Of a DNA stretch of 64,000 nt, positions 49,980-60,393 are shown piece by piece. The notes beneath the pieces were generated by a model that did no database searches, was not told the DNA's origin, and saw only the letters and a program-made list of their open reading frames with translations. How positions within the stretch are numbered: the stretch's first letter is position 1; each line of letters begins with the position of its first letter. Source of the DNA: a virus; IMG/VR virus record IMGVR_UViG_3300037041_001083, positions 15,996 through 79,995 of that record; one strand, 5' to 3'. The position numbers and the translations under genes are program-made.

Positions 49980-50708
49980 TTAATCCTTGTCAGGCATGTG
50001 AGGTAGTCCACGGACTTTCTTAGGCTTCAAAATATGGTGGATTACGAACTTCATTTTTTTAACAAATGTTGGACGCTGAAAAGCCTTAGCAATCCCTCTG
50101 CCTGTGCGCTTTTGCAACAACTGGTGCATTTTTTTACAGCACTCACAGTTTTCCTCTGTGCAGTTTTTCAAGTGTTCATGGGCTGATAATAATATCGCTT
50201 TATGATTTGCAGCTTCGTGTGGATTCTGAGGCAAATGCATCATTCCTTCATGGAACATTGCTGCTCCATTACTTCGGTGATATTCGTCACATTCAGCCTT
50301 TTTCACCATGCCAATCATGCGCCACTCTGAACATTTGCAGTTGGTATGGACTGCGCCTTTAAGGTGGTCAGGAACCATACCAGCAGCCCACACACGAGGA
50401 CTCTTAGGCGATCCAAAGGCATGTAGGCAAGCTTCGCAAGCATCACCAGTTATCCGAACCACCTGCGCCCGTCTGCCATATTTTTCGATAATGGCATCAA
50501 ACGATTGGGTAGCATTGGCATCAGTCAGCTCAGTACGAGCTACTGACTTCCAATTTCGGGTGTCTCGCTTCGTAGGAGTGTTTGCGAGTCGCTTGAGTTG
50601 GCCTGATAGGTACTCCATAGTCCAGTGCTTATCTCGTGCTTGTTGCACAAGGTCAGCAACCTTTTCCTTGCGATGCTCGCCCATATGCGTGATTTTCTCT
50701 ATCGGCAT
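49980..50708 (-). CDS. MuF/SPP1 gp7-like minor head protein
   Basis: W..VARTE...ACEAC...HTNCKC. Confidence 0.7.
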   Translation of the reverse strand: MPIEKITHMGEHRKEKVADLVQQARDKHWTMEYLSGQLKRLANTPTKRDTRNWKSVARTELTDANATQSFDAIIEKYGRRAQVVRITGDACEACLHAFGSPKSPRVWAAGMVPDHLKGAVHTNCKCSEWRMIGMVKKAECDEYHRSNGAAMFHEGMMHLPQNPHEAANHKAILLSAHEHLKNCTEENCECCKKMHQLLQKRTGRGIAKAFQRPTFVKKMKFVIHHILKPKKVRGLPHMPDKD

Positions 50709-53422
50709 CCAAACCTCCTCATCAACATTTTGGACTGCAACTTGAACGCAACAACATTATTTCCCGAAGCTTTATCCATGATTGATTTTCTTATTGCGCC
50801 CTTGCTTTGCATTGGTACTTCGATAAAGGATAACTTTTTCTTGGGTCGAGTGTATGCCACATACTCAACATTTCGTTCCTGCTGGACTTGATCGGGAGTT
50901 TTCGCACGACCTCGTGCTTTATCAAACAAGTCTCTATTCAAAATATAAACATTATCAGCCTCAAGCCCTTTGCACTTGTGGACACTGGATAAACGAACAA
51001 TTCCCTTGGTGTTTTCTTCGGCAAACATAGTTTCAATTTCCGCAACAATACCTTCAGGTGTTCCAGCTTTTGTATTGTCGATAAAAGTCATCACTGACTC
51101 ATATCTGTCATCAATATGGTCAACGGATGCATCCTCATGTTTACGTTTAATTTTCGCCTTTTCATGGTCAGCCCATGTATCAAGCTTGTTTACTAATTCA
51201 GGTATTGTTCTGGCTTTTAATTTCCTAATTAGTGATGCAATTCCTTTACCAATATCCCTACCTAACATTTTGCAAGGTATTCTGTCTTTCAATAACGAAT
51301 AGGTTAGCTTGACTAATGGAGCATTGTTACGACAAATAATCATATCATTTGGTAAAAAATCACCATTTTTAAAACCAACACCTTTTTCTTCGGTAACACC
51401 TTCAATGGCCCACGGCGCAACTTCAATGTGTCGTACCAATGGTTTCGCATATTCATTAATTACGCTCTTAGGACAGCGATAACATATGGACAGCGGTATT
51501 TCAGTTGCATTAAATGTTTTTACAGCCCTACTAATTCCTTTTGTATCAGCACCACTAAATCCATAAATACTCTGATAAGGATCGCCTACTCCAATAAACC
51601 TACCATTAGGAGCAAGCATTTTTGTTAATAACTTATGTTGTAATGAATTTAGGTCTTGGCAATTATGTACCAATATTCCATTAGCGTAAAAGTTATGATT
51701 ATCTTCTATGGTTAAGTCGTAAACATAATAATCTTTTAATGTATATGGTTCAACTGATTCAACAATACCTTCAGTCGGACAATCATCACCATCTATGCAC
51801 ATATTCATTTCTTGTGCAATTTTTTCAGCATTACTAAAAGCAAAACTATTACTGTACCGATATACTTTCCATCCTATTGATTGAAGGAACTCTTCTTTCT
51901 TTTTATCCTGTTCCTTACGCATGTTGTGTCTTCCACCATCAACTTCAATAGCAATCATTCTATCTGGATTAGCTATGTCAACTTTATATGCTGTTGGATA
52001 GCCGAGTCCTTTTTTAACCTTTGTAGGAATAGCATATTCAGCAATCCATCCTTCTCCTAATTCATCAAGTAGTACTTGCTGAGGAATGGTCAGTCCTGTT
52101 CCATTTCCACCTCTAATATTTTCAGTAATTGTACCTCTCCAATTACTCCTTTCCTGAAATTCAGGAGTTTCATTTTTACTACTCATTATTTCAGATAGCT
52201 TTTTCTTTCCTTCAGCACCAATTTTAAATGCTTGAGTTGTAGCAGCCAATGATTCAACTTGCATTTTCATTCCCGGATTTACTAATCCAGCTTCAATCCA
52301 TTCTTCATTAGCCCAAACTTTATGGTCAGTAGTGCAAACAAGTATATTGGTTTTGTTGTTATGCCCAATACGTTCACGACCATTTTCTATCCATTTATAC
52401 TCTTTTCTCCATTTTACCCTAATCCTAACCAATGGTTTCCTATTTAATGTTTTACTCCACTTGGTTATTTTTTTAGTTTCTTGTTCTCCAGTTTCAGTAT
52501 TATATGTAATCACTTTACCAGTAATATGCTCATCAACAATTTGTCCTATCGGCAAACTACTTCCATCTGCCATTAAAATTGGAGTTTGATAAGGCAAACA
52601 TTCATCACAAAACAAAAATTTGTATTGTGGCATTTTAATGTTATTTATCAATGGTAAATAAATCATATCGGCAAAATCCACGACATCGTGATGTTTGTTA
52701 CTTTCTGTTAATATTGCTCGTGCATTTTCAATGATCGTATCGTCATCAAAATCTTCGGAAAAATCAATGTTGAAATTTTGCATTAAATGTATCCAATTTT
52801 CCGGTGTATCTTCCATAATTCCATTTTTGTTTCCCGGAACCAATCCATGTATTTTTGCCTTTTGAACCAAATCGCTTAGTGCAAATTTCATTGACATGTC
52901 TTTAGGACTTAATCTTTCACTTATCAGGTTCAATACCTTGTAATTATCAACTTGAACTTTACCAGCAAATGAACGCCATGCTGCAAATCCCTCAGCGTGC
53001 ATTGTCTTGGCTGGCAATCCTCGTGAACTTAATTCAGTTTCAATATGTTTGTTAAATGCTAAAAATCTTGTGTTCATTTTGTCTTCTGGACTTAACAAAT
53101 CAAATGCCATTTCAATGGTACTGGATTTACCGCTTCCCGAAACAGCATCTACTAAGCAATTTCCCTTGCCATATTTAATGAATTTGAACACGGCCATCTG
53201 GTACTTGCTAGGAGTCCTGCCATCGAGCTTTGGTATTAGTTTAAGGTCAACGTCAGGCAATGCTTCTACCTCGGCTGGGATTGGCGTTTTCGAGGTATTT
53301 TCAGTGGTAATTGCCTGTGCGATGGTCTTGGGTTGCATTTCCTTTGCGGTAGGCTCAGGGTCGGCAACAACCTCGTTTGCAGTTGCGGCACTCTCATCTA
53401 ACTTCGCTATCGTAGTATTCAC
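50699..53422 (-). CDS. UvrD/Rep SF1 helicase containing an intein
   Basis: AVSGSGKS, DE|CQD, VGDPYQSIYGF, YRCP, SSVHKCKGLE, YVAYTR. Confidence 0.9.
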   Translation of the reverse strand: MNTTIAKLDESAATANEVVADPEPTAKEMQPKTIAQAITTENTSKTPIPAEVEALPDVDLKLIPKLDGRTPSKYQMAVFKFIKYGKGNCLVDAVSGSGKSSTIEMAFDLLSPEDKMNTRFLAFNKHIETELSSRGLPAKTMHAEGFAAWRSFAGKVQVDNYKVLNLISERLSPKDMSMKFALSDLVQKAKIHGLVPGNKNGIMEDTPENWIHLMQNFNIDFSEDFDDDTIIENARAILTESNKHHDVVDFADMIYLPLINNIKMPQYKFLFCDECLPYQTPILMADGSSLPIGQIVDEHITGKVITYNTETGEQETKKITKWSKTLNRKPLVRIRVKWRKEYKWIENGRERIGHNNKTNILVCTTDHKVWANEEWIEAGLVNPGMKMQVESLAATTQAFKIGAEGKKKLSEIMSSKNETPEFQERSNWRGTITENIRGGNGTGLTIPQQVLLDELGEGWIAEYAIPTKVKKGLGYPTAYKVDIANPDRMIAIEVDGGRHNMRKEQDKKKEEFLQSIGWKVYRYSNSFAFSNAEKIAQEMNMCIDGDDCPTEGIVESVEPYTLKDYYVYDLTIEDNHNFYANGILVHNCQDLNSLQHKLLTKMLAPNGRFIGVGDPYQSIYGFSGADTKGISRAVKTFNATEIPLSICYRCPKSVINEYAKPLVRHIEVAPWAIEGVTEEKGVGFKNGDFLPNDMIICRNNAPLVKLTYSLLKDRIPCKMLGRDIGKGIASLIRKLKARTIPELVNKLDTWADHEKAKIKRKHEDASVDHIDDRYESVMTFIDNTKAGTPEGIVAEIETMFAEENTKGIVRLSSVHKCKGLEADNVYILNRDLFDKARGRAKTPDQVQQERNVEYVAYTRPKKKLSFIEVPMQSKGAIRKSIMDKASGNNVVAFKLQSKMLMRRFGCR
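51662..52600 (-). mobile_element. Intein (313 aa) with in-frame Vsr/DUF559-type endonuclease
   Basis: Starts CLPYQTPILMADG, has block B CTTDHK, ends YVYDLTIEDNHNFYANGILVHN|C. Internal KVDIA...IEVDGGRH...D..KEEFL...GWKVYR. Confidence 0.92.
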
Positions 53423-54393
53423 TTGTCGTTCCCCTTCGTGCGTTCCATGAACATCGCAATGACTTTCTTTCGTTCCACCGGATGTACTGGATACTTGCTA
53501 AAAATATCGTCAAACTTCGCATCCAATGCGTGTTTGTTTTCTGGTTGCAAATAAACGTCAAGGTATTTGTTCCGCAGGAGTTCGTCAACTATTTTGTTCA
53601 AATAGTTTTCATTGTGGATTGGCACTAATTCCCATTTCTTCACTTCCTCGTCGGTTAGCTCGTGGTCGTACTCCACTACACCGTGACGAATCATTGCGTC
53701 CTTGTCTTCCATTTTTTCATCAGGATTGTAGCTGATATATCCGGGCTTAACTGCACCTACTCCAGCAGGTCGTAATCGCATACCGTATTTAAAAGTTTTC
53801 TGTGTAGGTATTACCGATGTTTCAGGCAAGCCTCGCACTGGTTTGGGAGCTGGAGGTTCAGCGATGCCTCTGGTTGCAATCGGCGTAGGTTCGGATGGTG
53901 GAGGAGCAAATGGTTTGTGCGCTGCGGTGATGCCTCTGGATACTGGTTTGGGTTCAGCACTTAAACTGGGTTTAACTTCCACAGGCACATGCTTGGCCTC
54001 AGCTCTCATCTTGGCAACCACAGCCTCAACCATAGCCACATGGTCAGCATCAGGAGCTTCACCGTAGGTTTTTTTCCACTCTCGCCAATACTTTTTATTG
54101 TCACCATGATGAAACAACGCATGAATATCCTCAAGCGTTTCATCCTTAACCTGATTCTTGGTTTCCTCGTCAGCGTCAGCCCAGCCTTCGATGTTCAGCT
54201 TGTTCAGCTCGTGGTCAAGCTCTTTGGCAGGATCAACCTTCGTGGATGCGTGGGTGTAGTTCGGTAGGTGTTTCCACTCACCACCAATTTTTTGATACCA
54301 ACCATCGGCTCTGCGAACGATTGTACCTGCTGGGAGTTCCTTGGCCTTCATCACGATGCCACGATTTGCTGGTTTGCCAAAAGTAAATTTCAT
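53419..54393 (-). CDS. Modular protein with a DarA C-terminal-like domain
   Basis: YGMRLRPAGVGAVKPG...RHGVVEYDHELTDEEVKKWELVP resembles the DarA_C pattern. It also carries the shared leader and the W..W.K.YG.AP module. Confidence 0.6.
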   Translation of the reverse strand: MKFTFGKPANRGIVMKAKELPAGTIVRRADGWYQKIGGEWKHLPNYTHASTKVDPAKELDHELNKLNIEGWADADEETKNQVKDETLEDIHALFHHGDNKKYWREWKKTYGEAPDADHVAMVEAVVAKMRAEAKHVPVEVKPSLSAEPKPVSRGITAAHKPFAPPPSEPTPIATRGIAEPPAPKPVRGLPETSVIPTQKTFKYGMRLRPAGVGAVKPGYISYNPDEKMEDKDAMIRHGVVEYDHELTDEEVKKWELVPIHNENYLNKIVDELLRNKYLDVYLQPENKHALDAKFDDIFSKYPVHPVERKKVIAMFMERTKGNDK

Positions 54394-54451
54394 CGGTTGC
54401 TCCTGACGCTAACAAGGTTCCAGAAAAAAAACGGAAGGGCTGATATGGTTT

Positions 54452-56041
54452 TTATTTGCCTTGCATTTTTGACCTTACATTTGCCTGTGTATTTCCGGTT
54501 TCTTTACCTATTTTCCATTCTAATTCAAATATTGCCGTACCTTCACGATTGTATCGGTTCATATCGCTCATGGTGGAATTTGGCCTCATAACTGTTCTAT
54601 CTTCGTACATATCCTTTAGTTTTTGATATTCAGGATGCTTGGTAATATCACCTGTTTTTGAAGTTTTAACTTCCTCTTGCACAGGTTTTTTCACTACATA
54701 CTTGGCATTTGATACTGGTTTTTGTGAATTTCTGCTCTCAACTTCGTTATCGTGCGATGTTGCTTTTGCTTTTGCCCCTTCACGAAAAGGAGTAAATTCT
54801 AATGGCTCTGAGTCATCCATTGAATCAGGAACATTTGTTACACTATCCCATGAATTATTGCCTACAAATTTTTTTGCACTTTTTATATCATTATCTGATA
54901 TATGCTTTTTAAGTTTTTGAGCCATATATTTATGTAAAGCTTCCATTGAATTTTGGTCGCCAGCTTCTCCACCATAATATCCTTGACCAAAATTGCCTGC
55001 TGCTTGATGTGCAAAATGATGATGTAAATAAGCATCCTCTGGATTTTCATGTGACTCATCATCCGCTAATCGTGCAACATGTTCAGGTAATATATTGTAC
55101 TTACTAATATAATGACGAAGTAATGGGTTTATTTTTTCTCCGGCTGCAAATTTATGTGTTTTAGCATATTCAGTTGCATTTTTTACTTCTTCACGACTAT
55201 GCCCCTTAAATGGCAATATTTGTCGAGCATCATCAGGATTACGCATAAGTTGATCGTCACGATGGATTTTTACTTTCTCGTATCGTTCCATACCACGTTT
55301 GGTAGGTTTTGCGCCTTCCTTTACCATTTGCTTTAATTCATCCAAATGCCTGTCTAGGTGCTTACAAGTGCCACCGTGATACTTACAAGCAGGACACTCG
55401 CAAGTCCATTTACCACTGGCTTTATGCTGGCCTATCACATAGTCTTTGCCGCTATCACCTTCAACAACAAATCTATTGGTGTGATTTTTGCCTTCTCCAA
55501 TCGGATCAATCATTTTGCCATGCGGTTTTATTTTCGGTGAAACCTTGAAGGTTTTTCGAGGTGCAGCTACTTCCTTGACTGGCTCTTGCTTTTCCTTTTC
55601 CTTTGGCTTGACGACAAACTTAGGAGCTGGTTCGCCAGCCTCCTCAGCCTTGTTTCTTTGTTTGGTACGTTGTGCTGGATTAGGAACGCCATGCGCCTGA
55701 ATGATCCTCTCATGTGCTGAATGGACGACTGACTTATGTGCGCTTGCCGGAGCACCACCGTATTTTTTCGCCCAGTCTCCCCAAAACTCAGCTTTACTTT
55801 GTCCACCCAAATGTACTTTTTTATGAAATGCTTCAATATCCTCGTGGGTTTCATTCATTGTTTCTTTACTAATATCCTTGGGGTCAAGGTTATGTTGTGC
55901 CAGCGCAGCATTGAGGTGTTTCTGGGCTTCAACACGAGTCCATTTGCCACCAGTTTGCTTTTCAAACATGCCTATTTTCCACTTGCGTTTCTCGCCAACC
56001 TGAGCTGCTTTAGCCTTAAACAAATTGAATAAAAATTTCAT
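54452..56041 (-). CDS. Modular SWIM zinc-finger protein
   Basis: VEGDSGKDYVI...WTCECPACKYHGGTCKH matches SWIM CxCx(n)CxH; shared leader and module are present. Confidence 0.7.
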   Translation of the reverse strand: MKFLFNLFKAKAAQVGEKRKWKIGMFEKQTGGKWTRVEAQKHLNAALAQHNLDPKDISKETMNETHEDIEAFHKKVHLGGQSKAEFWGDWAKKYGGAPASAHKSVVHSAHERIIQAHGVPNPAQRTKQRNKAEEAGEPAPKFVVKPKEKEKQEPVKEVAAPRKTFKVSPKIKPHGKMIDPIGEGKNHTNRFVVEGDSGKDYVIGQHKASGKWTCECPACKYHGGTCKHLDRHLDELKQMVKEGAKPTKRGMERYEKVKIHRDDQLMRNPDDARQILPFKGHSREEVKNATEYAKTHKFAAGEKINPLLRHYISKYNILPEHVARLADDESHENPEDAYLHHHFAHQAAGNFGQGYYGGEAGDQNSMEALHKYMAQKLKKHISDNDIKSAKKFVGNNSWDSVTNVPDSMDDSEPLEFTPFREGAKAKATSHDNEVESRNSQKPVSNAKYVVKKPVQEEVKTSKTGDITKHPEYQKLKDMYEDRTVMRPNSTMSDMNRYNREGTAIFELEWKIGKETGNTQANVRSKMQGK

Positions 56042-59000
56042 TTCTTCCCCCTACTATTTAAAACTTGAGCAGCCCGTTCAACCACAGCCTTGTGTTCGTC
56101 GTCTGGTGCGCCACCGTATTGTTTTGCCCACTTTTTCCAGTATGCTTGAGCGTTACCGCCCTTGTCAGTATGCGATACAAAAGCTTTCAAATCATCCTCA
56201 GTCTCTTTAATCACACTAGCGTCTAAATCCGCATATCCTGCTTCACTTAAAACTTTACTTAATGCGGTGGTTAAATCGGATGTTTTTTCAATAGCTGGTT
56301 TTTGAACTCCACGATTCTGAACTAATTTATCATGTATCGCATGGGTTTTTTCAGGCTTTTTTGCTGAGTCCAAATTTGGACTGTGTGACTTTTCCTCTTT
56401 AGGAGGCAACCTTTTATCGTGCTTGTGTTCAACGTACTGGTCAGGCAAATCAGGATGCTTTTTCTTCACTGATTTTGCATATGCTGCAAAGGCTTCCTCG
56501 TCCTTAGCTAAGTGAGTCAGGTGAGCATCCCTCTTACCTTTACCAGCAGCCTTCAAATGCCGCACAGCAGCGTTCCAATGCTTTTTTGCCAGCCCTTTAT
56601 TCTCGCTTGAGGCATGGTGCGCTGCGTGGCGCAAATGGTGTTCAGCGGCAGCATTATTCTCATCGGCAGTCAGCGGTTCCGTACTTGATGAACTAGGTGC
56701 TTGATCTCCATTCTCCGGAGTAATTTTGGTTTTAACTTCCGGTTTTTCCTCAGCTTTTTTTTCAGGAGCTTTACTTGATGGCTTCTTGATAGTTTCCGCT
56801 GTGTCGTCACGTTTGCTTACAACAGCATCAGCTTTGGGTTCCTCGCCCATTGTTGCATACATTTTACCGCTGGCTTTCTGGGAGCCGGGAAGTAAGCTAG
56901 GCGAATGTTTTTTGTAATTGCTATCACCATACATCGCATGTACTTTTTTGTTTTCTCGCTTTTGATAGTCAAGCACAGCCTTACCAACTTGCTCATATTC
57001 AGGCAACAAATCAGCACTTCGGTTATTTCTCATGTTATCAACGCTCATTTTGAACGCTGTAAATCCCGGCACTTCGTCATAGTCCGAGGTAACTTTCATG
57101 TTTGAATTATGTCGGCTTGCAAGTCTGGCATACTTAGTTACGTCCAGTGTACGGTCACTGATACCAACATGGATTTTGACAGGCTTATCCTGTCCAAAAC
57201 GCCATATTCTACCATACGATTGTTCGGTTTCACCCGGAGTCCAGCCAAGGTCATAGCGATACATGCCATTTGCCATCTGCATGTTCACGCCTTCCTTAAT
57301 TGACTCGTCACAGGCAACAATAATTTGTGGGCCATTTTTGTCCTTGGTATCTAGGAATGGTTCAAGCCCTTCCTTGTGACTTCCATCGTAATAAACGGCC
57401 ATTTTTTTAAGTTCAGGTGGCAAATTGTCAAATACATGTCTGGCACTGTTGATACGCTTGGTAAACACGATAAATTTACCATTTTTAGGATCAGCGAAAT
57501 GTTCCTTCATTTTTGCGTATGCGTCTTTGGCCTTCGCTGATACTTCACCGTCGAGGTTCAAAATGGCTTTTAAGGTTTGTGGTCGAAATTTTTGCAAAAA
57601 CTTCTGAGCCTGTTTTACTGGCTTGGCAAGCTCCGGCCCCTCCTCCTCGCCTTCTTCACCGTCATATCCTTTTTTCCAAGCATCAGGATTGTAGCTGTAG
57701 TCAACTCCAGCTTTATCGCAAACATCCTTGAAAGCTTTTACCTTCTTTGAATATTCATTTGGGTGGTCAACGATACCAGTCAGCGTGTTTATGGCATCAA
57801 TTACCTTGCCAGTGGGGTTTTCCTCATCCTCTTGCTCATCAGGATCACCTTGAAGCTTTCGCAACTCAGCAGCTACCTTGGGATCGGTGTCAGCGAGTTG
57901 TTGAATAGCATCCATAGCATCTGTGATGGCTGATTCATTCGCCAAGGCCTGTTTTGGCTCCATGTGAACCACGGAAGTTTTTTCATCACGCTCTGGTAAT
58001 AAGTGCATCCAATTTGTTCGGCGAATGGAAATGAAACCCTTGGCAAGCAAATCCTCTCGGAGCTGCTTTACGCCTTTGTCGCTCCATGTGTAGCCAGCCT
58101 TGGATTTTGTGAAACCGTATTGTTTGGCAAAATCATCGAGGTTCTGAGTACGTCCGGGATATAACCACGACATTTGCCCAACTACGTCAGCAGGGTCTTT
58201 GGATATAAATGTACCTGTTGCCAGCCTTTTGTAAGCTGCACCACTGAAATATTGCAATGCAATATGTCGGCCACTATCAGGGTTTTTTACCTTCTGGCAA
58301 TTATGTACTAGGACACCGTTGATACTGTAGGAAGGGTGACCTGCAACTCCAATATCGTAGTAACGACCCTCTGGGTTTCGTTCATCACTTCCTGATTCGT
58401 AAACCTCAACATTGTCCACCCTAAAGCACTCAATACTTCCTTTTTCTTTAAATCTTGCGCTTTCCTTGCGAGTAATTGGTGTGAGTAACCGTCGCACTCC
58501 ACGCACAGTTTCTTCACTGGAAATGCTAAGTCCGGCTTGTATGCCGCTGCTATCCCCGGCCTCCTCTTGCCAGTAGATATTGCTAAATTCCACACCCAAC
58601 CATTTCCCAATGCTTCCATTAACAATGCCTCTGGTTTCGTCATTCCCGTTCCATTGCCCATGCGAATTGGAGGTTTGTGACCTATTTTCTTCAATGTCCG
58701 AGTCATTTTCATCCGTGTTTTTAAATTGCTCATCGGATTTTTCTCGTTCATCCGTTTTGCAGCCCAAGGCTTTTCCATTCCTAAATGTGCTTCCGATATT
58801 TTCCTGCTTACTTCCTCGTTGTACATTTTCTCTCGTATTGATGGTTGAGTCATCCGCCATTTCGCTGAACAGGATGTGCCGCAAAAACGATTCTTGTTCG
58901 TTCCTTTCTGAAGATATTTTAGTTGAAATTCCTTCATGCACCATTCGCATCGCTTCACTTGTGTTGACAAGCCAATCTCCCTCAATAATATCCTTTGCCA

Positions 59001-60393
59001 TTACCCAACCACTCGGAGTAAGCCAAGGATGATTCAATGAACATTTTATTTCTTGCCCATTGAATCTTAATCTTATGTGCTTGTCGAGTTGCTTATTGCT
59101 AGTGCTTATTACTGGCATTTCTCCACTTGCACTTTTTACCATGTCACCAATTTTAATTTCAGCAATTCGCTTGGTAGTCCCATCAGCCATGTCAATCAAA
59201 GTATCTGGATGAAAACACTCATCCAAACTCACAAGGTCAAAATCCCCTCCCGCCAACGCTTGCGCTCGCAAATAATGCTTTGTGGGATCGGGTTCATTCT
59301 CAGCACCGTGATTGTGGGAAATAAAGTCATAGCTGGTGGTGAAAATGGTATTTGGTGGAGCATTTTTAATATCCTCAACCAATTTTTCCATGTCTCCCTT
59401 GTAATGGTTGTTTACTAAGTCACCATCAATGACAAATACGTTCATTTTGTTGTCGGTATATTCGAGTATTTTCTTAGCATTTTGATGCAGCGTCATGTTT
59501 GTAGCAACAATTAAAGGTCGTTTGACCTTACCTTGAGCCATTAAATTTATTGCATCAAATGGTAGAAGTAAACCTTTACCACCGCCCATATCAACGTCAA
59601 CAATAGCCTTGGTCATCTTGTTAAGTTTAGCAAGCACCTCAGCTTGATGCGGAAACAGCTCAATTTTACTGCTGGTTGAAGGAATATCAGGGCAATCTTG
59701 AGGTCGCAGGTGCATTGCTTGCAGGTTTATCATTTCCTGTTTTTCCCAATGCTCCTTAGCAGCCTCACCGTGTTCAGTCGCCATTCTTGCTTCGGCTTTT
59801 TCGTGGTAGTCAGCTTCGGGTGAGTTATAAATTGCCTTGTACAATTCAGCATGATCGGACTTGGTAGCAAACTCTGTTGCGCCCTTTTTTTTAAGTTTTT
59901 TGAGTTTGGGCTTTATTTCGTTTTCAGTAATCCAGTCTCGCATATCCTTCACTGTTTCAAGCGCAGGTTCCTCACCATTTGCTTTTGCATCTTCTTTGTG
60001 ATCGTGGAGGTATGATTGCAATACTTTGTTCACATCGTGGCTATCAACTGGATTTGTGCCTTCAAACTCATCACGAGTTTCTGGCCTATATTTCCAGTGT
60101 TTCCACATATGCGCTTCGTCGATAGGTGTGGTTTGTCCGAGGTAGTTGTAAATATCCTCGTTCTTCATTTCATCCTGTGGAGTGTGCTTATACGTTTTAA
60201 GCTGTCCATTATGAATAACGGACGTATGATGTTCATCAGCAGAAACAAACTTGTTTTTATATGCCGCAGGATTTTGTTCAGCATCTTTTCTGCTATCCCT
60301 ATATTCATCAATATGAATGATTTTACCATTGGGAAGCTTGCGATAGTGTGCGGTTACTTTGGCTTTTTTAATCCAATCAAACATTCTTACCAT
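56038..60393 (-). CDS. SNF2-family helicase containing an intein
   Basis: LFPHQ, DMGGGKG, DE|CQ, ATGT, KFIVFT, EGVNMQ, WTPG..EQSYGRIWRFGQ. Confidence 0.85.
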   Translation of the reverse strand: MVRMFDWIKKAKVTAHYRKLPNGKIIHIDEYRDSRKDAEQNPAAYKNKFVSADEHHTSVIHNGQLKTYKHTPQDEMKNEDIYNYLGQTTPIDEAHMWKHWKYRPETRDEFEGTNPVDSHDVNKVLQSYLHDHKEDAKANGEEPALETVKDMRDWITENEIKPKLKKLKKKGATEFATKSDHAELYKAIYNSPEADYHEKAEARMATEHGEAAKEHWEKQEMINLQAMHLRPQDCPDIPSTSSKIELFPHQAEVLAKLNKMTKAIVDVDMGGGKGLLLPFDAINLMAQGKVKRPLIVATNMTLHQNAKKILEYTDNKMNVFVIDGDLVNNHYKGDMEKLVEDIKNAPPNTIFTTSYDFISHNHGAENEPDPTKHYLRAQALAGGDFDLVSLDECFHPDTLIDMADGTTKRIAEIKIGDMVKSASGEMPVISTSNKQLDKHIRLRFNGQEIKCSLNHPWLTPSGWVMAKDIIEGDWLVNTSEAMRMVHEGISTKISSERNEQESFLRHILFSEMADDSTINTRENVQRGSKQENIGSTFRNGKALGCKTDEREKSDEQFKNTDENDSDIEENRSQTSNSHGQWNGNDETRGIVNGSIGKWLGVEFSNIYWQEEAGDSSGIQAGLSISSEETVRGVRRLLTPITRKESARFKEKGSIECFRVDNVEVYESGSDERNPEGRYYDIGVAGHPSYSINGVLVHNCQKVKNPDSGRHIALQYFSGAAYKRLATGTFISKDPADVVGQMSWLYPGRTQNLDDFAKQYGFTKSKAGYTWSDKGVKQLREDLLAKGFISIRRTNWMHLLPERDEKTSVVHMEPKQALANESAITDAMDAIQQLADTDPKVAAELRKLQGDPDEQEDEENPTGKVIDAINTLTGIVDHPNEYSKKVKAFKDVCDKAGVDYSYNPDAWKKGYDGEEGEEEGPELAKPVKQAQKFLQKFRPQTLKAILNLDGEVSAKAKDAYAKMKEHFADPKNGKFIVFTKRINSARHVFDNLPPELKKMAVYYDGSHKEGLEPFLDTKDKNGPQIIVACDESIKEGVNMQMANGMYRYDLGWTPGETEQSYGRIWRFGQDKPVKIHVGISDRTLDVTKYARLASRHNSNMKVTSDYDEVPGFTAFKMSVDNMRNNRSADLLPEYEQVGKAVLDYQKRENKKVHAMYGDSNYKKHSPSLLPGSQKASGKMYATMGEEPKADAVVSKRDDTAETIKKPSSKAPEKKAEEKPEVKTKITPENGDQAPSSSSTEPLTADENNAAAEHHLRHAAHHASSENKGLAKKHWNAAVRHLKAAGKGKRDAHLTHLAKDEEAFAAYAKSVKKKHPDLPDQYVEHKHDKRLPPKEEKSHSPNLDSAKKPEKTHAIHDKLVQNRGVQKPAIEKTSDLTTALSKVLSEAGYADLDASVIKETEDDLKAFVSHTDKGGNAQAYWKKWAKQYGGAPDDEHKAVVERAAQVLNSRGKK
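58300..59217 (-). mobile_element. Intein (306 aa) in SNF2 Walker B
   Basis: Starts CFHPDTLIDMADG, has block B CSLNHPWLTPSGW, ends YYDIGVAGHPSYSINGVLVHN|C. Confidence 0.92.
58308..58985 (-). CDS. Overprinted Vsr/DUF559-type endonuclease in the +1 frame inside the intein
   Basis: CEWC...FCGTSC zinc finger, a NUMOD3-like RKISEAHLG and YKPDLAF...VECDGYSH...D..K..VL...GW..LRFTN. Candidate start is the TTG at 58970 after GAGGGAG. Confidence 0.8.
   Translation of the reverse strand: MREIGLSTQVKRCEWCMKEFQLKYLQKGTNKNRFCGTSCSAKWRMTQPSIREKMYNEEVSRKISEAHLGMEKPWAAKRMNEKNPMSNLKTRMKMTRTLKKIGHKPPIRMGNGTGMTKPEALLMEALGNGWVWNLAISTGKRRPGIAAAYKPDLAFPVKKLCVECDGYSHQLLARKAQDLKKKEVLSALGWTMLRFTNQEVMNETQRVVTTILELQVTLPTVSTVS

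What the first reader, a model, noticed from the sequence alone, without database searches (positions are those of the whole stretch)
51662..59217. Sister inteins in two neighbouring helicases: same endonuclease family, one in frame and one out of frame
Seen: both inteins insert at the Walker B junction (UvrD FCDE|CQD, SNF2 SLDE|CQK), are similar in size (313 vs 306 aa) and share the 14-nt junction GTACATAATTGCCA. The in-frame UvrD nuclease (GGNGTGLTIPQQVLLDELGEGW...AYKVDIA...IEVDGGRH...QDKKKEEFLQSIGW) aligns by eye with the out-of-frame SNF2 one (MGNGTGMTKPEALLMEALGNGW...AYKPDLA...VECDGYSH...QDLKKKEVLSALGW). Inference: one genome holds both states of a transition between fused and overprinted nuclease, and the family may target DE-C-Q codons across helicase superfamilies.
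Basis: partly seen in the sequence, partly recalled or inferred. Interest (0 to 1): 0.72.

Follow-up and report, generated by a model that had tools for sequence, protein, structure and literature searches.

The report
Helicase inteins: fused versus overprinted nuclease
One uncultured phage has self-splicing inteins at the ATP-site motif of two helicase genes, with related homing nucleases: one is fused in frame (rare) and one is a separate gene one base out of step over the intein (the family's usual state); they are cousins, not sisters, and out-of-frame intein nucleases were described in 2025-2026.

Summary
A UvrD-like gene (50699-53422, -) has a 313-aa intein (51662-52600) with an in-frame DUF559/Vsr-like nuclease. 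An SNF2-like gene (56038-60393, -) has a 306-aa intein (58300-59217). Its middle is a stop-free, unstructured spacer in the helicase frame. The +1 frame of the same DNA (58970-58308) encodes an intact zinc-finger plus Vsr-like nuclease.

The two nucleases are 40% identical and belong to one homing-nuclease family, but each has closer relatives in other phages, so they are not sisters. The overprinted layout is not a transitional oddity. It is the normal state: 157 of 160 viral loci, 27 of 28 strong genome hits and 37 Vibrio phage records. Selection on both frames is measurable. The in-frame layout is the exception, one lineage found only in UvrD-like helicases. Which state came first could not be resolved. 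The shared 14-mer only encodes V-H-N|C-Q (P about 0.04).

Intein-free orthologues of both helicases exist, which fits homing. This scan has already noted the overprinted family on many other genomes, and the general design is published (Gosselin 2025; Phillips 2026). The new point here is that free-standing, overprinted and fused states all occur in one nuclease family.

The parts
50699..53422 (-). UvrD-like SF1 helicase gene (907 aa) that hosts the in-frame intein
   Evidence: ORF. Pfam UvrD-helicase, UvrD_C, AAA_19, Intein_splicing and DUF559.
51662..52600 (-). UvrD intein, 313 aa, class 1 (Cys1, TTDH block B, terminal His-Asn, +1 Cys), inserted after Walker B FCDE
   Evidence: Intein_splicing 42.2 bits against a 35.8 cut-off. 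hhalign to the family Hint profile gives 99.1% probability.
51800..52240 (-). In-frame NUMOD-like helix plus DUF559/Vsr-like nuclease domain of the UvrD intein. It has no zinc finger, and its two other frames hold 27 and 8 stops.
   Evidence: Orthologous in-frame copies are L086, P0152 and P0153.
56038..60393 (-). SNF2-like SF2 helicase gene, one uninterrupted 1451-aa ORF, that hosts the overprinted intein
   Evidence: Pfam Helicase_C and ResIII. Orthologue L006 carries SNF2-rel_dom.
58300..59217 (-). SNF2 intein, 306 aa in the helicase frame (Cys1, SLNH block B, terminal His-Asn, +1 Cys)
   Evidence: AlphaFold2 model. Foldseek hits to the gp41-1, RecA and DnaB intein splicing domains, E 1e-6 to 1e-4.
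58933..59217 (-). N-terminal Hint half (intein residues 1-95), coded in the helicase frame only over most of its length
   Evidence: pLDDT 96-98. In relatives, substitutions in this part fall on host codon position 3 (103 of 148).
58438..58932 (-). Helicase-frame spacer (intein residues about 96-260): stop-free, hydrophilic and predicted to be unstructured. It is the by-product reading of the nuclease gene.
   Evidence: pLDDT 40-58 from residue 130 to 260. 0 of 20,000 shuffles stay open. Host-frame identity to L238 is only 38%.
58300..58437 (-). C-terminal Hint half (intein residues 261-306, blocks F and G). It overlaps the tail of the nuclease ORF.
   Evidence: pLDDT 92-96. The nuclease stop lies 8 nt before the end of the intein.
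58308..58970 (-). +1-frame homing-nuclease gene: 220 codons from TTG at 58970, stop TAG at 58308-58310
   Evidence: DUF559 47.0 bits. AlphaFold2 mean pLDDT 92.1. All 13 invariant family residues are present.
58977..58983 (-). Shine-Dalgarno-like GAGGGAG, 6 nt upstream of the TTG start, lying inside the Hint codons for Glu-Gly-Asp
   Evidence: Across the family an SD plus start lies just before the first zinc-finger Cys in 41 of 88 loci, against 6-8 of 88 in control windows.
58869..58949 (-). FCS-type zinc finger of the nuclease (CxxC ... FCxxxC; nuclease residues 8-34)
   Evidence: C8 and C11 invariant, C30 and C34 nearly invariant. Profile match to FCS/MYM zinc fingers.
58371..58661 (-). Vsr-like (EDxHD-type) catalytic core of the +1 nuclease (GNG motif, D147, E158, D160, H164, D173)
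   Evidence: Profile match to 3hrl at E 9.4e-13. Foldseek hits 3hrl, 3r3p (I-Bth0305I) and 1vsr.
51657..51670 (-). 14-mer GTACATAATTGCCA at the C-terminal junction of the UvrD intein (codons V-H-N|C-Q)
   Evidence: P = 0.043 given the amino acids and this genome's codon usage.
58295..58308 (-). The same 14-mer at the C-terminal junction of the SNF2 intein

Best explanation
The phage carries two independently acquired members of one large family of mobile inteins. Members of this family insert at, or just after, the Walker B Asp-Glu of P-loop ATPases and travel with a Vsr-like (EDxHD/DUF559) homing nuclease.

The SNF2 copy has the family's usual layout. The helicase frame reads straight through a split-in-space Hint domain: about 95 N-terminal and about 45 C-terminal residues joined by an unstructured spacer of about 165 residues. 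The precursor can therefore splice and restore ...SLDE-CQKVKN... (inferred). The nuclease is a separate gene in the +1 frame. It is probably started at TTG 58970 behind GAGGGAG (inferred) and has a zinc finger, NUMOD-like helices and the Vsr-like core. It would cut intein-free helicase alleles in co-infecting phages, so that repair copies the intein together with its gene (inferred from family behaviour; intein-free orthologues are shown).

Selection on the helicase keeps the host frame free of stops, and selection for homing keeps the nuclease frame intact. The codon signature is T at third positions of 15% against 32% genome-wide.

The UvrD copy belongs to a rare lineage, found only in UvrD-like helicases, in which the nuclease core lies in frame between the Hint halves and the zinc finger is absent. 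It most likely arose by fusion of an overprinted or free-standing ancestor, but that direction is inferred, not shown.
For: - Anatomy and frames.
- Overprinting is conserved. The nuclease is +1 to a long host ORF in 80 of 80 loci in the first scan and 157 of 160 after the second. The same holds for 27 of 28 strong hits in bacterial and archaeal assemblies and for Vibrio phage helicase genes annotated without any nested gene.
- Selection. No synonymous shuffle in 20,000 keeps the host frame open. In close pairs, substitutions switch from host position 3 in the Hint half (103 of 148) to nuclease position 3 in the overlap (177 of 270). Window against L238: 56% identity in the nuclease frame against 38% in the host frame over the overlap. 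None of 63 risky codons follows a T.
- Folds. Nuclease pLDDT 92.1, with hits to 3hrl, I-Bth0305I and Vsr. The intein ends have pLDDT above 92, the middle 40-58, and the model hits intein splicing domains including gp41-1.
- Start signal.
- Not sisters: tree.
- In-frame lineage: L086, P0152 and P0153, all UvrD-like with DE|C...HN|CQD.
- Intein-free orthologues: L237 (LDE|SHNIKN) and L241 (VDE|LQDLN).
- Free-standing relatives: L090 lies beside a helicase gene, and L170 is a stand-alone ORF whose neighbours were not examined.
Against: - Nothing shows directly that either intein splices, that the +1 ORF is translated, or that either nuclease cuts.
- The TTG start is weak, and no promoter-like signal above chance lies upstream.
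- The window's own SNF2 element has no close relative (the best is 56% identical), so the codon-position test rests on other family members.
- Intein_splicing scores only 26.8 bits against a 35.8 cut-off for the SNF2 protein.
- The AU test does not reject a tree in which the in-frame clade is basal to all others (p 0.8). 'Fusion from an overprinted ancestor' therefore rests on counts and domain architecture only.
- The surveys used nuclease motifs and the best 80 hits per scan, so more distant in-frame forms could have been missed.
Confidence: 0.8

Rival explanations
1. The two inteins are true sisters. One arose from the other inside this genome, or in a recent ancestor, by jumping between the two helicase genes, and the frame state changed during or after the jump.
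For: Same nuclease family at 40% identity, the same insertion point after Asp-Glu with Cys-Gln following, similar sizes, and a shared 14-mer.
Against: Each nuclease has closer relatives elsewhere, with 98% support for the window SNF2 copy with L006/L007 and for the window UvrD copy with L086. L238 is 56% identical to the SNF2 nuclease. The Hint domains differ in sub-type, GHPSY...VHN against DNHNFY...VHN. The 14-mer has P about 0.04 given the encoded residues. The flanks share only 24 of 48 bases.
Confidence: 0.04
2. The in-frame layout is ancestral. A canonical bifunctional Vsr-type intein suffered compensating frameshifts, the nuclease acquired its own start and a zinc finger, and the overprinted and free-standing forms descend from it.
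For: With a generic DUF559 outgroup the position of the in-frame clade is unresolved. The constrained tree with it basal is not rejected and even scores higher than the quick free tree (p-AU 0.8).
Against: Overprinted and free-standing members share a complete independent-gene architecture (SD, start, FCS finger, NUMOD helices) that the in-frame form lacks. Starred branches force at least two changes between the free-standing and overprinted states. In-frame members were found in one host family only. Published models also favour invasion of mini-inteins by free-standing nuclease genes (PMC2677866; 10.1101/2025.01.02.630785).
Confidence: 0.15
3. The +1 nuclease gene of this particular SNF2 intein is a silent relic. 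The element persists as a mini-intein with a long spacer, and the ORF is open only because it has not yet decayed.
For: The start codon is TTG rather than ATG. There is no promoter signal above chance. No close relative allows a selection test on this copy itself.
Against: All 13 invariant and the nearly invariant family residues are intact. A good SD lies at correct spacing, 7 codons before the first Cys, the family median. The +1 frame is open for 220 codons while the third frame has 25 stops. The nuclease frame is better conserved than the host frame against L238.
Confidence: 0.08
4. The out-of-frame state is an assembly or sequencing frameshift artefact in a metagenomic contig.
For: The record is an uncultured IMG/VR contig.
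Against: The same +1 layout occurs in over 150 independent loci, including cultured and sequenced Vibrio phages. The nuclease tail and the C-terminal Hint blocks truly overlap in two frames. The codon bias is specific to the overlap.
Confidence: 0.01

Closest known systems
Non-canonical inteins whose homing endonuclease lies in another frame or strand. Sources: Gorbalenya 1998, as cited in 10.1101/2025.01.02.630785; Gosselin, Arsenault and Gogarten, bioRxiv 10.1101/2025.01.02.630785; Phillips, DeSimone and Gogarten, bioRxiv 10.64898/2026.09.14.751524.
   Same: A complete nuclease ORF lies inside the intein between the splicing blocks. The host-frame middle is stop-free but structureless. The nuclease frame is under purifying selection. 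Distribution is sporadic. The proposed origin is invasion of a mini-intein by a free-standing nuclease gene.
   Different: The published cases are antisense LAGLIDADG, antisense VSR-like, and frame-3 endonuclease VII-like genes in actinophage terminase, capsid, polymerase and thymidylate synthase genes, plus the cyanobacterial dnaX intein; they are called rare. Here the gene is a sense-strand, always +1, zinc-finger plus Vsr-like gene at Walker B of helicases (also a terminase), it occurs in more than 150 loci, and it has an in-frame relative. The dnaX paper reports that no in-frame endonuclease appears in any of its alignments.
Fractured genes: split inteins with an intervening free-standing Vsr-like or GIY-YIG endonuclease gene (Dassa et al. 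2009, PMC2677866). The nuclease family was later named EDxHD, with I-Bth0305I (PDB 3r3p) as its type (PMC3384342).
   Same: Vsr-like nuclease with an E/D/H/D active site. Phage DNA-metabolism genes are the hosts. The nuclease gene has its own start, and its 3' end overlaps the C-terminal intein part. The closest solved intein fold includes gp41-1, which comes from such a locus. The UvrD intein corresponds to that paper's predicted step IIIa, nuclease fused in frame.
   Different: Neither window gene is broken. The SNF2 frame runs uninterrupted through the nuclease gene, so there is no stop after the N-half and no separate start for the C-half. Sequence similarity to I-Bth0305I itself is weak (E 0.033). 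The best solved relative is the DUF559 protein 3hrl.
ShiLan-type hidden out-of-frame HNH endonuclease insertions in phage methylase genes (Arsenault et al. 2025, PMC11855218)
   Same: A nuclease gene is overprinted in another frame of an insertion that stays open in the host frame.
   Different: Those insertions have no splicing domain and carry an HNH nuclease. Here both elements have full Hint domains and a Vsr-like nuclease.

Membership tests
Class 1 intein (Hint / Intein_splicing PF14890) | Cys (or Ser) at intein position 1 and a block B (T/S)xxH | tested here: met
   UvrD intein: C1 and TTDH. SNF2 intein: C1 and SLNH. C1 and H63 are invariant in 57 family inteins.
Class 1 intein (Hint / Intein_splicing PF14890) | C-terminal His-Asn followed by Cys, Ser or Thr in the extein | tested here: met
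   LVHN|CQD and LVHN|CQK. N306 is invariant and H305 nearly invariant.
Class 1 intein (Hint / Intein_splicing PF14890) | Profile match above Pfam's gathering score | tested here: inconclusive
   UvrD protein 42.2 bits against a 35.8 cut-off, so met. SNF2 protein 26.8 bits, below the cut-off. The long spacer splits the match.
Class 1 intein (Hint / Intein_splicing PF14890) | Hint fold | tested here: met
   In the SNF2 intein model, residues 1-95 and 261-306 have pLDDT 92-98. Foldseek hits gp41-1, Mtu RecA and DnaB intein splicing domains at E 1e-6 to 1e-4, rmsd 1.4-3 A. The UvrD intein was not folded, but hhalign to the family profile gives 99.1%.
Class 1 intein (Hint / Intein_splicing PF14890) | Interrupts a conserved host motif, and intein-free alleles exist | tested here: met
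   Both inteins follow the Walker B Asp-Glu. Intein-free orthologues are L237 (SNF2, 55% identical N-extein) and L241 (UvrD-like, 59%).
Class 1 intein (Hint / Intein_splicing PF14890) | Protein splicing activity | not testable with these tools
   Needs expression of the precursor.
Vsr-like / EDxHD (DUF559, PF04480) homing endonuclease | DUF559 profile match above the cut-off | tested here: met
   47.0 bits for the +1 ORF and 38.0 bits for the UvrD protein, against a cut-off of 20.6.
Vsr-like / EDxHD (DUF559, PF04480) homing endonuclease | Conserved catalytic Glu, Asp, His and Asp | tested here: met
   E158, D160, H164 and D173 are invariant in 76 sequences, the window copy included. The same columns are conserved in the UvrD copy.
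Vsr-like / EDxHD (DUF559, PF04480) homing endonuclease | Fold like Vsr or I-Bth0305I | tested here: met
   Foldseek: 3hrl TM 0.69, 3r3p TM 0.59 and 1vsr TM 0.41 (normalised by target), E 6e-3 to 7e-2. Profile against 3hrl E 9.4e-13, but against 3r3p only 0.033.
Vsr-like / EDxHD (DUF559, PF04480) homing endonuclease | Site-specific cleavage of the intein-free allele | not testable with these tools
   Needs an in vitro cleavage assay.
[quoted passage not shown] | Complete nuclease ORF within the intein bounds in another frame, with the host frame uninterrupted | tested here: met
   SNF2 intein: the +1 ORF 58970-58308 lies inside 59217-58300. Not met for the UvrD intein, where the nuclease is in frame.
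[quoted passage not shown] | Host frame kept open by selection, and host-frame middle without structure | tested here: met
   0 of 20,000 shuffles stay open. pLDDT 40-58. T3 usage 15% against 32%, and 0 of 63 risky codons follow a T.
[quoted passage not shown] | Nuclease frame under purifying selection | tested here: met
   Relatives: 177 of 270 substitutions in the overlap fall on nuclease position 3. Window against L238: 56% against 38% identity.
Fractured gene / natural split intein with an intervening nuclease gene | Stop codon after the N-terminal intein half and a separate start for the C-terminal half | tested here: not met
   Both helicase genes are single ORFs of 907 and 1451 aa.

The most novel reading that the evidence does not exclude
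One homing-nuclease family preserves, as living lineages, every step by which a canonical bifunctional intein is built. The steps are a free-standing gene beside a helicase (L090), a gene overprinted in the +1 frame of a mini-intein (the majority, including the SNF2 copy here), an N-terminal fusion (P0056), and a full in-frame fusion that has lost its zinc finger (the UvrD lineage here). The UvrD intein would then be direct natural evidence for the 'shift into frame' step, which Dassa 2009 and Gosselin 2025 only hypothesised. This phage would offer both end states for side-by-side experiments.
Probability: 0.45. Interest if true: 0.75.

Novelty: new variant of a known kind. Interest (0 to 1): 0.58.

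Why it matters
How inteins acquired their homing nucleases is a long-standing question. The favoured model is that a free-standing nuclease gene invades a mini-intein and is later fused in frame, but natural intermediates are few.

This family supplies them in numbers. It includes a fully overlapping gene pair of about 200 codons that has stayed stable across deep divergence. It has also repeatedly switched host among P-loop ATPases through the shared Walker B site.

There is a practical consequence. The nested nuclease gene is absent from the three Vibrio phage GenBank annotations examined, which label the gene 'DNA helicase' or 'P-loop NTPase'. Such inteins can therefore be misread as decaying or mini-inteins.

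The phage studied here holds a fused and an overprinted copy at equivalent sites. That makes cross-cleavage and expression comparisons straightforward.

Tried and rejected
- DNA-level searches of both inteins against 50,697 phage records found nothing. Only protein-level searches worked.
- The 14-mer was rejected as a sign of shared descent. It encodes V-H-N|C-Q, and P is about 0.043 given those residues.
- Sequencing artefact was rejected because the layout is conserved.
- Rooting the nuclease tree with generic DUF559 proteins, and an AU test of 'in-frame clade basal', were inconclusive. I therefore make no firm claim about direction.
- The promoter scan inside the intein gave 3 sites against 2.3 expected, so no promoter is claimed.
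I could not check whether the roughly 1,096 protein clusters of 160-340 aa found at E below 1e-30 come from overprinted or free-standing loci.
- Programmed +1 frameshifting as the route to the nuclease was considered but not tested beyond the enrichment of SD plus start.
- Co-divergence of the Hint and nuclease parts is significant but weak (Mantel r 0.215, 0 of 999 permutations).
Full report
**What is there**

The window is the last 64 kb of a 79,995-bp IMG/VR virus record from an uncultured phage, estimated 87% complete. Two long minus-strand genes carry inteins.

- The UvrD-like gene (50699-53422, 907 aa) has a 313-aa intein at 51662-52600, with junctions FCDE|CLPYQ and LVHN|CQD.
- The SNF2-like gene (56038-60393, 1451 aa) has a 306-aa intein at 58300-59217, with junctions SLDE|CFHPD and LVHN|CQK.

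Pfam finds DUF559 in frame in the UvrD protein (38.0 bits). It finds none in the SNF2 frame. The ORF 58308-58985, offset +1 to SNF2, scores 47.0 bits. The two nucleases are 40% identical over 102 residues (E 5e-24). The Hint parts are barely alike. The 14-mer occurs at both C-terminal junctions.

**The overprinting is real and selected**

The +1 ORF stops 8 nt before the end of the intein, so its tail and the C-terminal splicing blocks are truly read in two frames. Four results point to selection.

- I shuffled synonymous codons within the nuclease ORF 20,000 times. The helicase frame never stayed open (mean 8.45 stops). The third frame carries 25 stops.
- Helicase-frame stops can arise only when a codon ending in T precedes one starting AA, AG or GA. 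None of the 63 such codons follows a T, and T at third positions is 15% against 32% genome-wide. In the in-frame UvrD nuclease, 27 of 55 such codons follow a T, and its other frames carry 27 and 8 stops.
- AlphaFold2 with family alignments folds the +1 protein confidently (mean pLDDT 92.1). Its core resembles the DUF559 protein 3hrl, the homing endonuclease I-Bth0305I and Vsr (profile against 3hrl E 9.4e-13). It also has an N-terminal FCS-type zinc finger.
- The helicase-frame intein folds only at its ends (residues 1-95 and 261-306, pLDDT 92-98), and these match intein splicing domains such as gp41-1 and RecA. Residues 130-260 score 40-58.

**It is the norm of a large family**

- A tblastn search found 34-35% identical homologues in 37 Vibrio phage records. 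In the three records I read (L001-L003), the match lies inside a helicase CDS at offset +1, and no nested gene is annotated.
- Two motif-based scans of IMG/VR returned 220-223 relatives each. Of the 160 loci fetched (overlapping contigs counted twice; 95 non-identical nuclease sequences, including the two window copies), 157 have the nuclease ORF (181-339 aa) inside a longer ORF (430-2105 aa) whose frame is the nuclease frame minus one.
- Junctions are nearly always xDE|CF... and ...(V/A)HN|C or S, and the nuclease stop lies 11-68 nt before the end of the intein.
- In the species-representative genomes, 27 of 28 strong hits, from MAGs of many phyla, look the same. The weak hits are ordinary stand-alone DUF559 genes.
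- Hosts include DEAH-type and SNF2-type helicases, an SNF2-methylase fusion and a large terminase. Some insertion points lie 2-3 residues further on (DEAH|C, DEATR|C).
- In four closely related pairs, substitutions fall on host codon position 3 in the Hint half (103 of 148). In the overlap they fall on host position 1, which is nuclease position 3 (177 of 270). The nuclease is therefore the selected reading there.
- An SD plus start codon lies within 25 codons upstream of the first zinc-finger Cys in 41 of 88 loci, against 6-8 of 88 control windows. In the window this is TTG 58970, 6 nt after GAGGGAG.

**The two window copies are cousins**

In a tree of 95 nucleases, the SNF2 copy joins L006 and L007, both in SNF2 genes (98%). 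The UvrD copy joins L086 (98%). Their Hint C-termini also belong to different sub-types, GHPSY..VHN and DNHNFY..VHN.

L238, an orthologous SNF2 gene (57% identical N-extein), carries the same intein. Its +1 nuclease is 56% identical to the window's, but its helicase-frame spacer is only 38% identical. L237 (SNF2, LDE|SHNIKN) and L241 (UvrD-like, VDE|LQDLN) are intein-free orthologues. This is the patchy pattern expected of homing elements.

The two reconstructed target sites in this genome share 24 of 48 bases, mostly GATGAR|TGCCAR. Given V-H-N-C-Q and local codon usage, the 14-mer has P about 0.043.

**The in-frame state is the exception**

- Only L086 among the 160 viral loci is in frame. 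It is an orthologous UvrD-like helicase with the same allele (LLADE|CLPYL...VHN|CQDIN).
- A search of longer proteins in the 5.8-billion-cluster library found just two more, P0152 and P0153. Both are UvrD-like with DE|CLP...VHN|CQDLN, at 47-50% identity. It also found P0154, a 301-aa intein-like ORF without Cys1 or the terminal His-Asn.
- The in-frame forms lack the zinc finger and begin at the NUMOD-like helix.
- Free-standing relatives exist. L090 is a 212-aa ORF overlapping the start of a helicase gene. L170 is a stand-alone ORF whose neighbours I did not examine.
- P0056 joins the helicase N-extein and N-Hint half in frame to the nuclease.

Against a generic DUF559 outgroup the whole homing family is one clade (99%). 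Whether the in-frame clade is nested or basal is unresolved (AU p 0.8). Fusion from an overprinted or free-standing ancestor is therefore the more economical reading, but it is not demonstrated.

**Comparison with what is known**

- Out-of-frame or antisense nuclease genes inside inteins have been described: antisense LAGLIDADG (Gorbalenya 1998, as cited), antisense VSR-like and frame-3 endonuclease VII-like in actinophages (10.1101/2025.01.02.630785), and the cyanobacterial dnaX intein (10.64898/2026.09.14.751524). Those papers call the design rare.
- The actinophage paper states that VSR-like nucleases were otherwise known only with split inteins. The dnaX paper reports no in-frame endonuclease in any of its alignments.
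- Dassa et al. (PMC2677866) described split inteins with free-standing Vsr-like genes and predicted in-frame fusion as a later step.
- I found no paper on a sense-strand +1 Vsr-like gene in Walker-B inteins, nor on a contiguous in-frame Vsr-type intein.
- This scan has already noted the overprinted family on many other genomes (131 notes), and those follow-ups reached the same view.

**Verdict**

The 'sister' and 'transition in one genome' reading is only partly right. The overprinted element is a typical member of a large, recently recognised kind. What this locus adds is the rare in-frame lineage of the same nuclease family, side by side with the usual state.

Noticed in passing
window 59203-59228 (-): An 11-pair hairpin (GGATGAG...TCATCC) spans the N-terminal insertion junction of the SNF2 intein, pairing the Walker B codons with the first intein codons. 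It may well be chance; the terminator-like scan found 1 site against 0.9 expected.
   Followed up: no
P0056 (protein library, 496 aa): A helicase N-extein and N-terminal Hint half (MLDE|CFPAGT...) run in frame into the zinc-finger/Vsr nuclease and end at its stop. This is either a half-fused, possibly split-intein variant, or a frameshifted record.
   Followed up: partly
L090:1513-2148 (+) and the helicase ORF L090:2126-3370: A free-standing 212-aa member of the same nuclease family overlaps the start of an intein-free helicase gene by about 22 nt. This is the classic layout of a free-standing homing gene beside its target.
   Followed up: partly
L017:1914-5807 and L008:614-4783: One helicase (L017) carries two inteins, one with the overprinted Vsr-like gene and one with an in-frame LAGLIDADG domain. 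L008 is an SNF2-methylase fusion with a second Hint match in its methylase part.
   Followed up: no
L012:2229-4535: The same overprinted intein type sits in a large terminase (Terminase_6N) at DEATR|CF, so the family has moved beyond helicases to another P-loop ATPase.
   Followed up: partly
L001, L002, L003 (Vibrio phages 1.088.O, K391, 159E43-1b): The GenBank records annotate the host gene as 'P-loop NTPase' or 'DNA helicase' and list no intein or nested nuclease gene, although a +1 ORF of 227-263 codons is present.
   Followed up: yes
P0154 (301 aa): An intein-sized ORF is closely related to the in-frame UvrD intein of P0153 but lacks Cys1 and the terminal His-Asn. It is possibly a decayed or excised copy.
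   Followed up: no
P0015, P0100, P0105: Some family nucleases carry two to four tandem FCS-type zinc fingers in front of the Vsr-like core.
   Followed up: no
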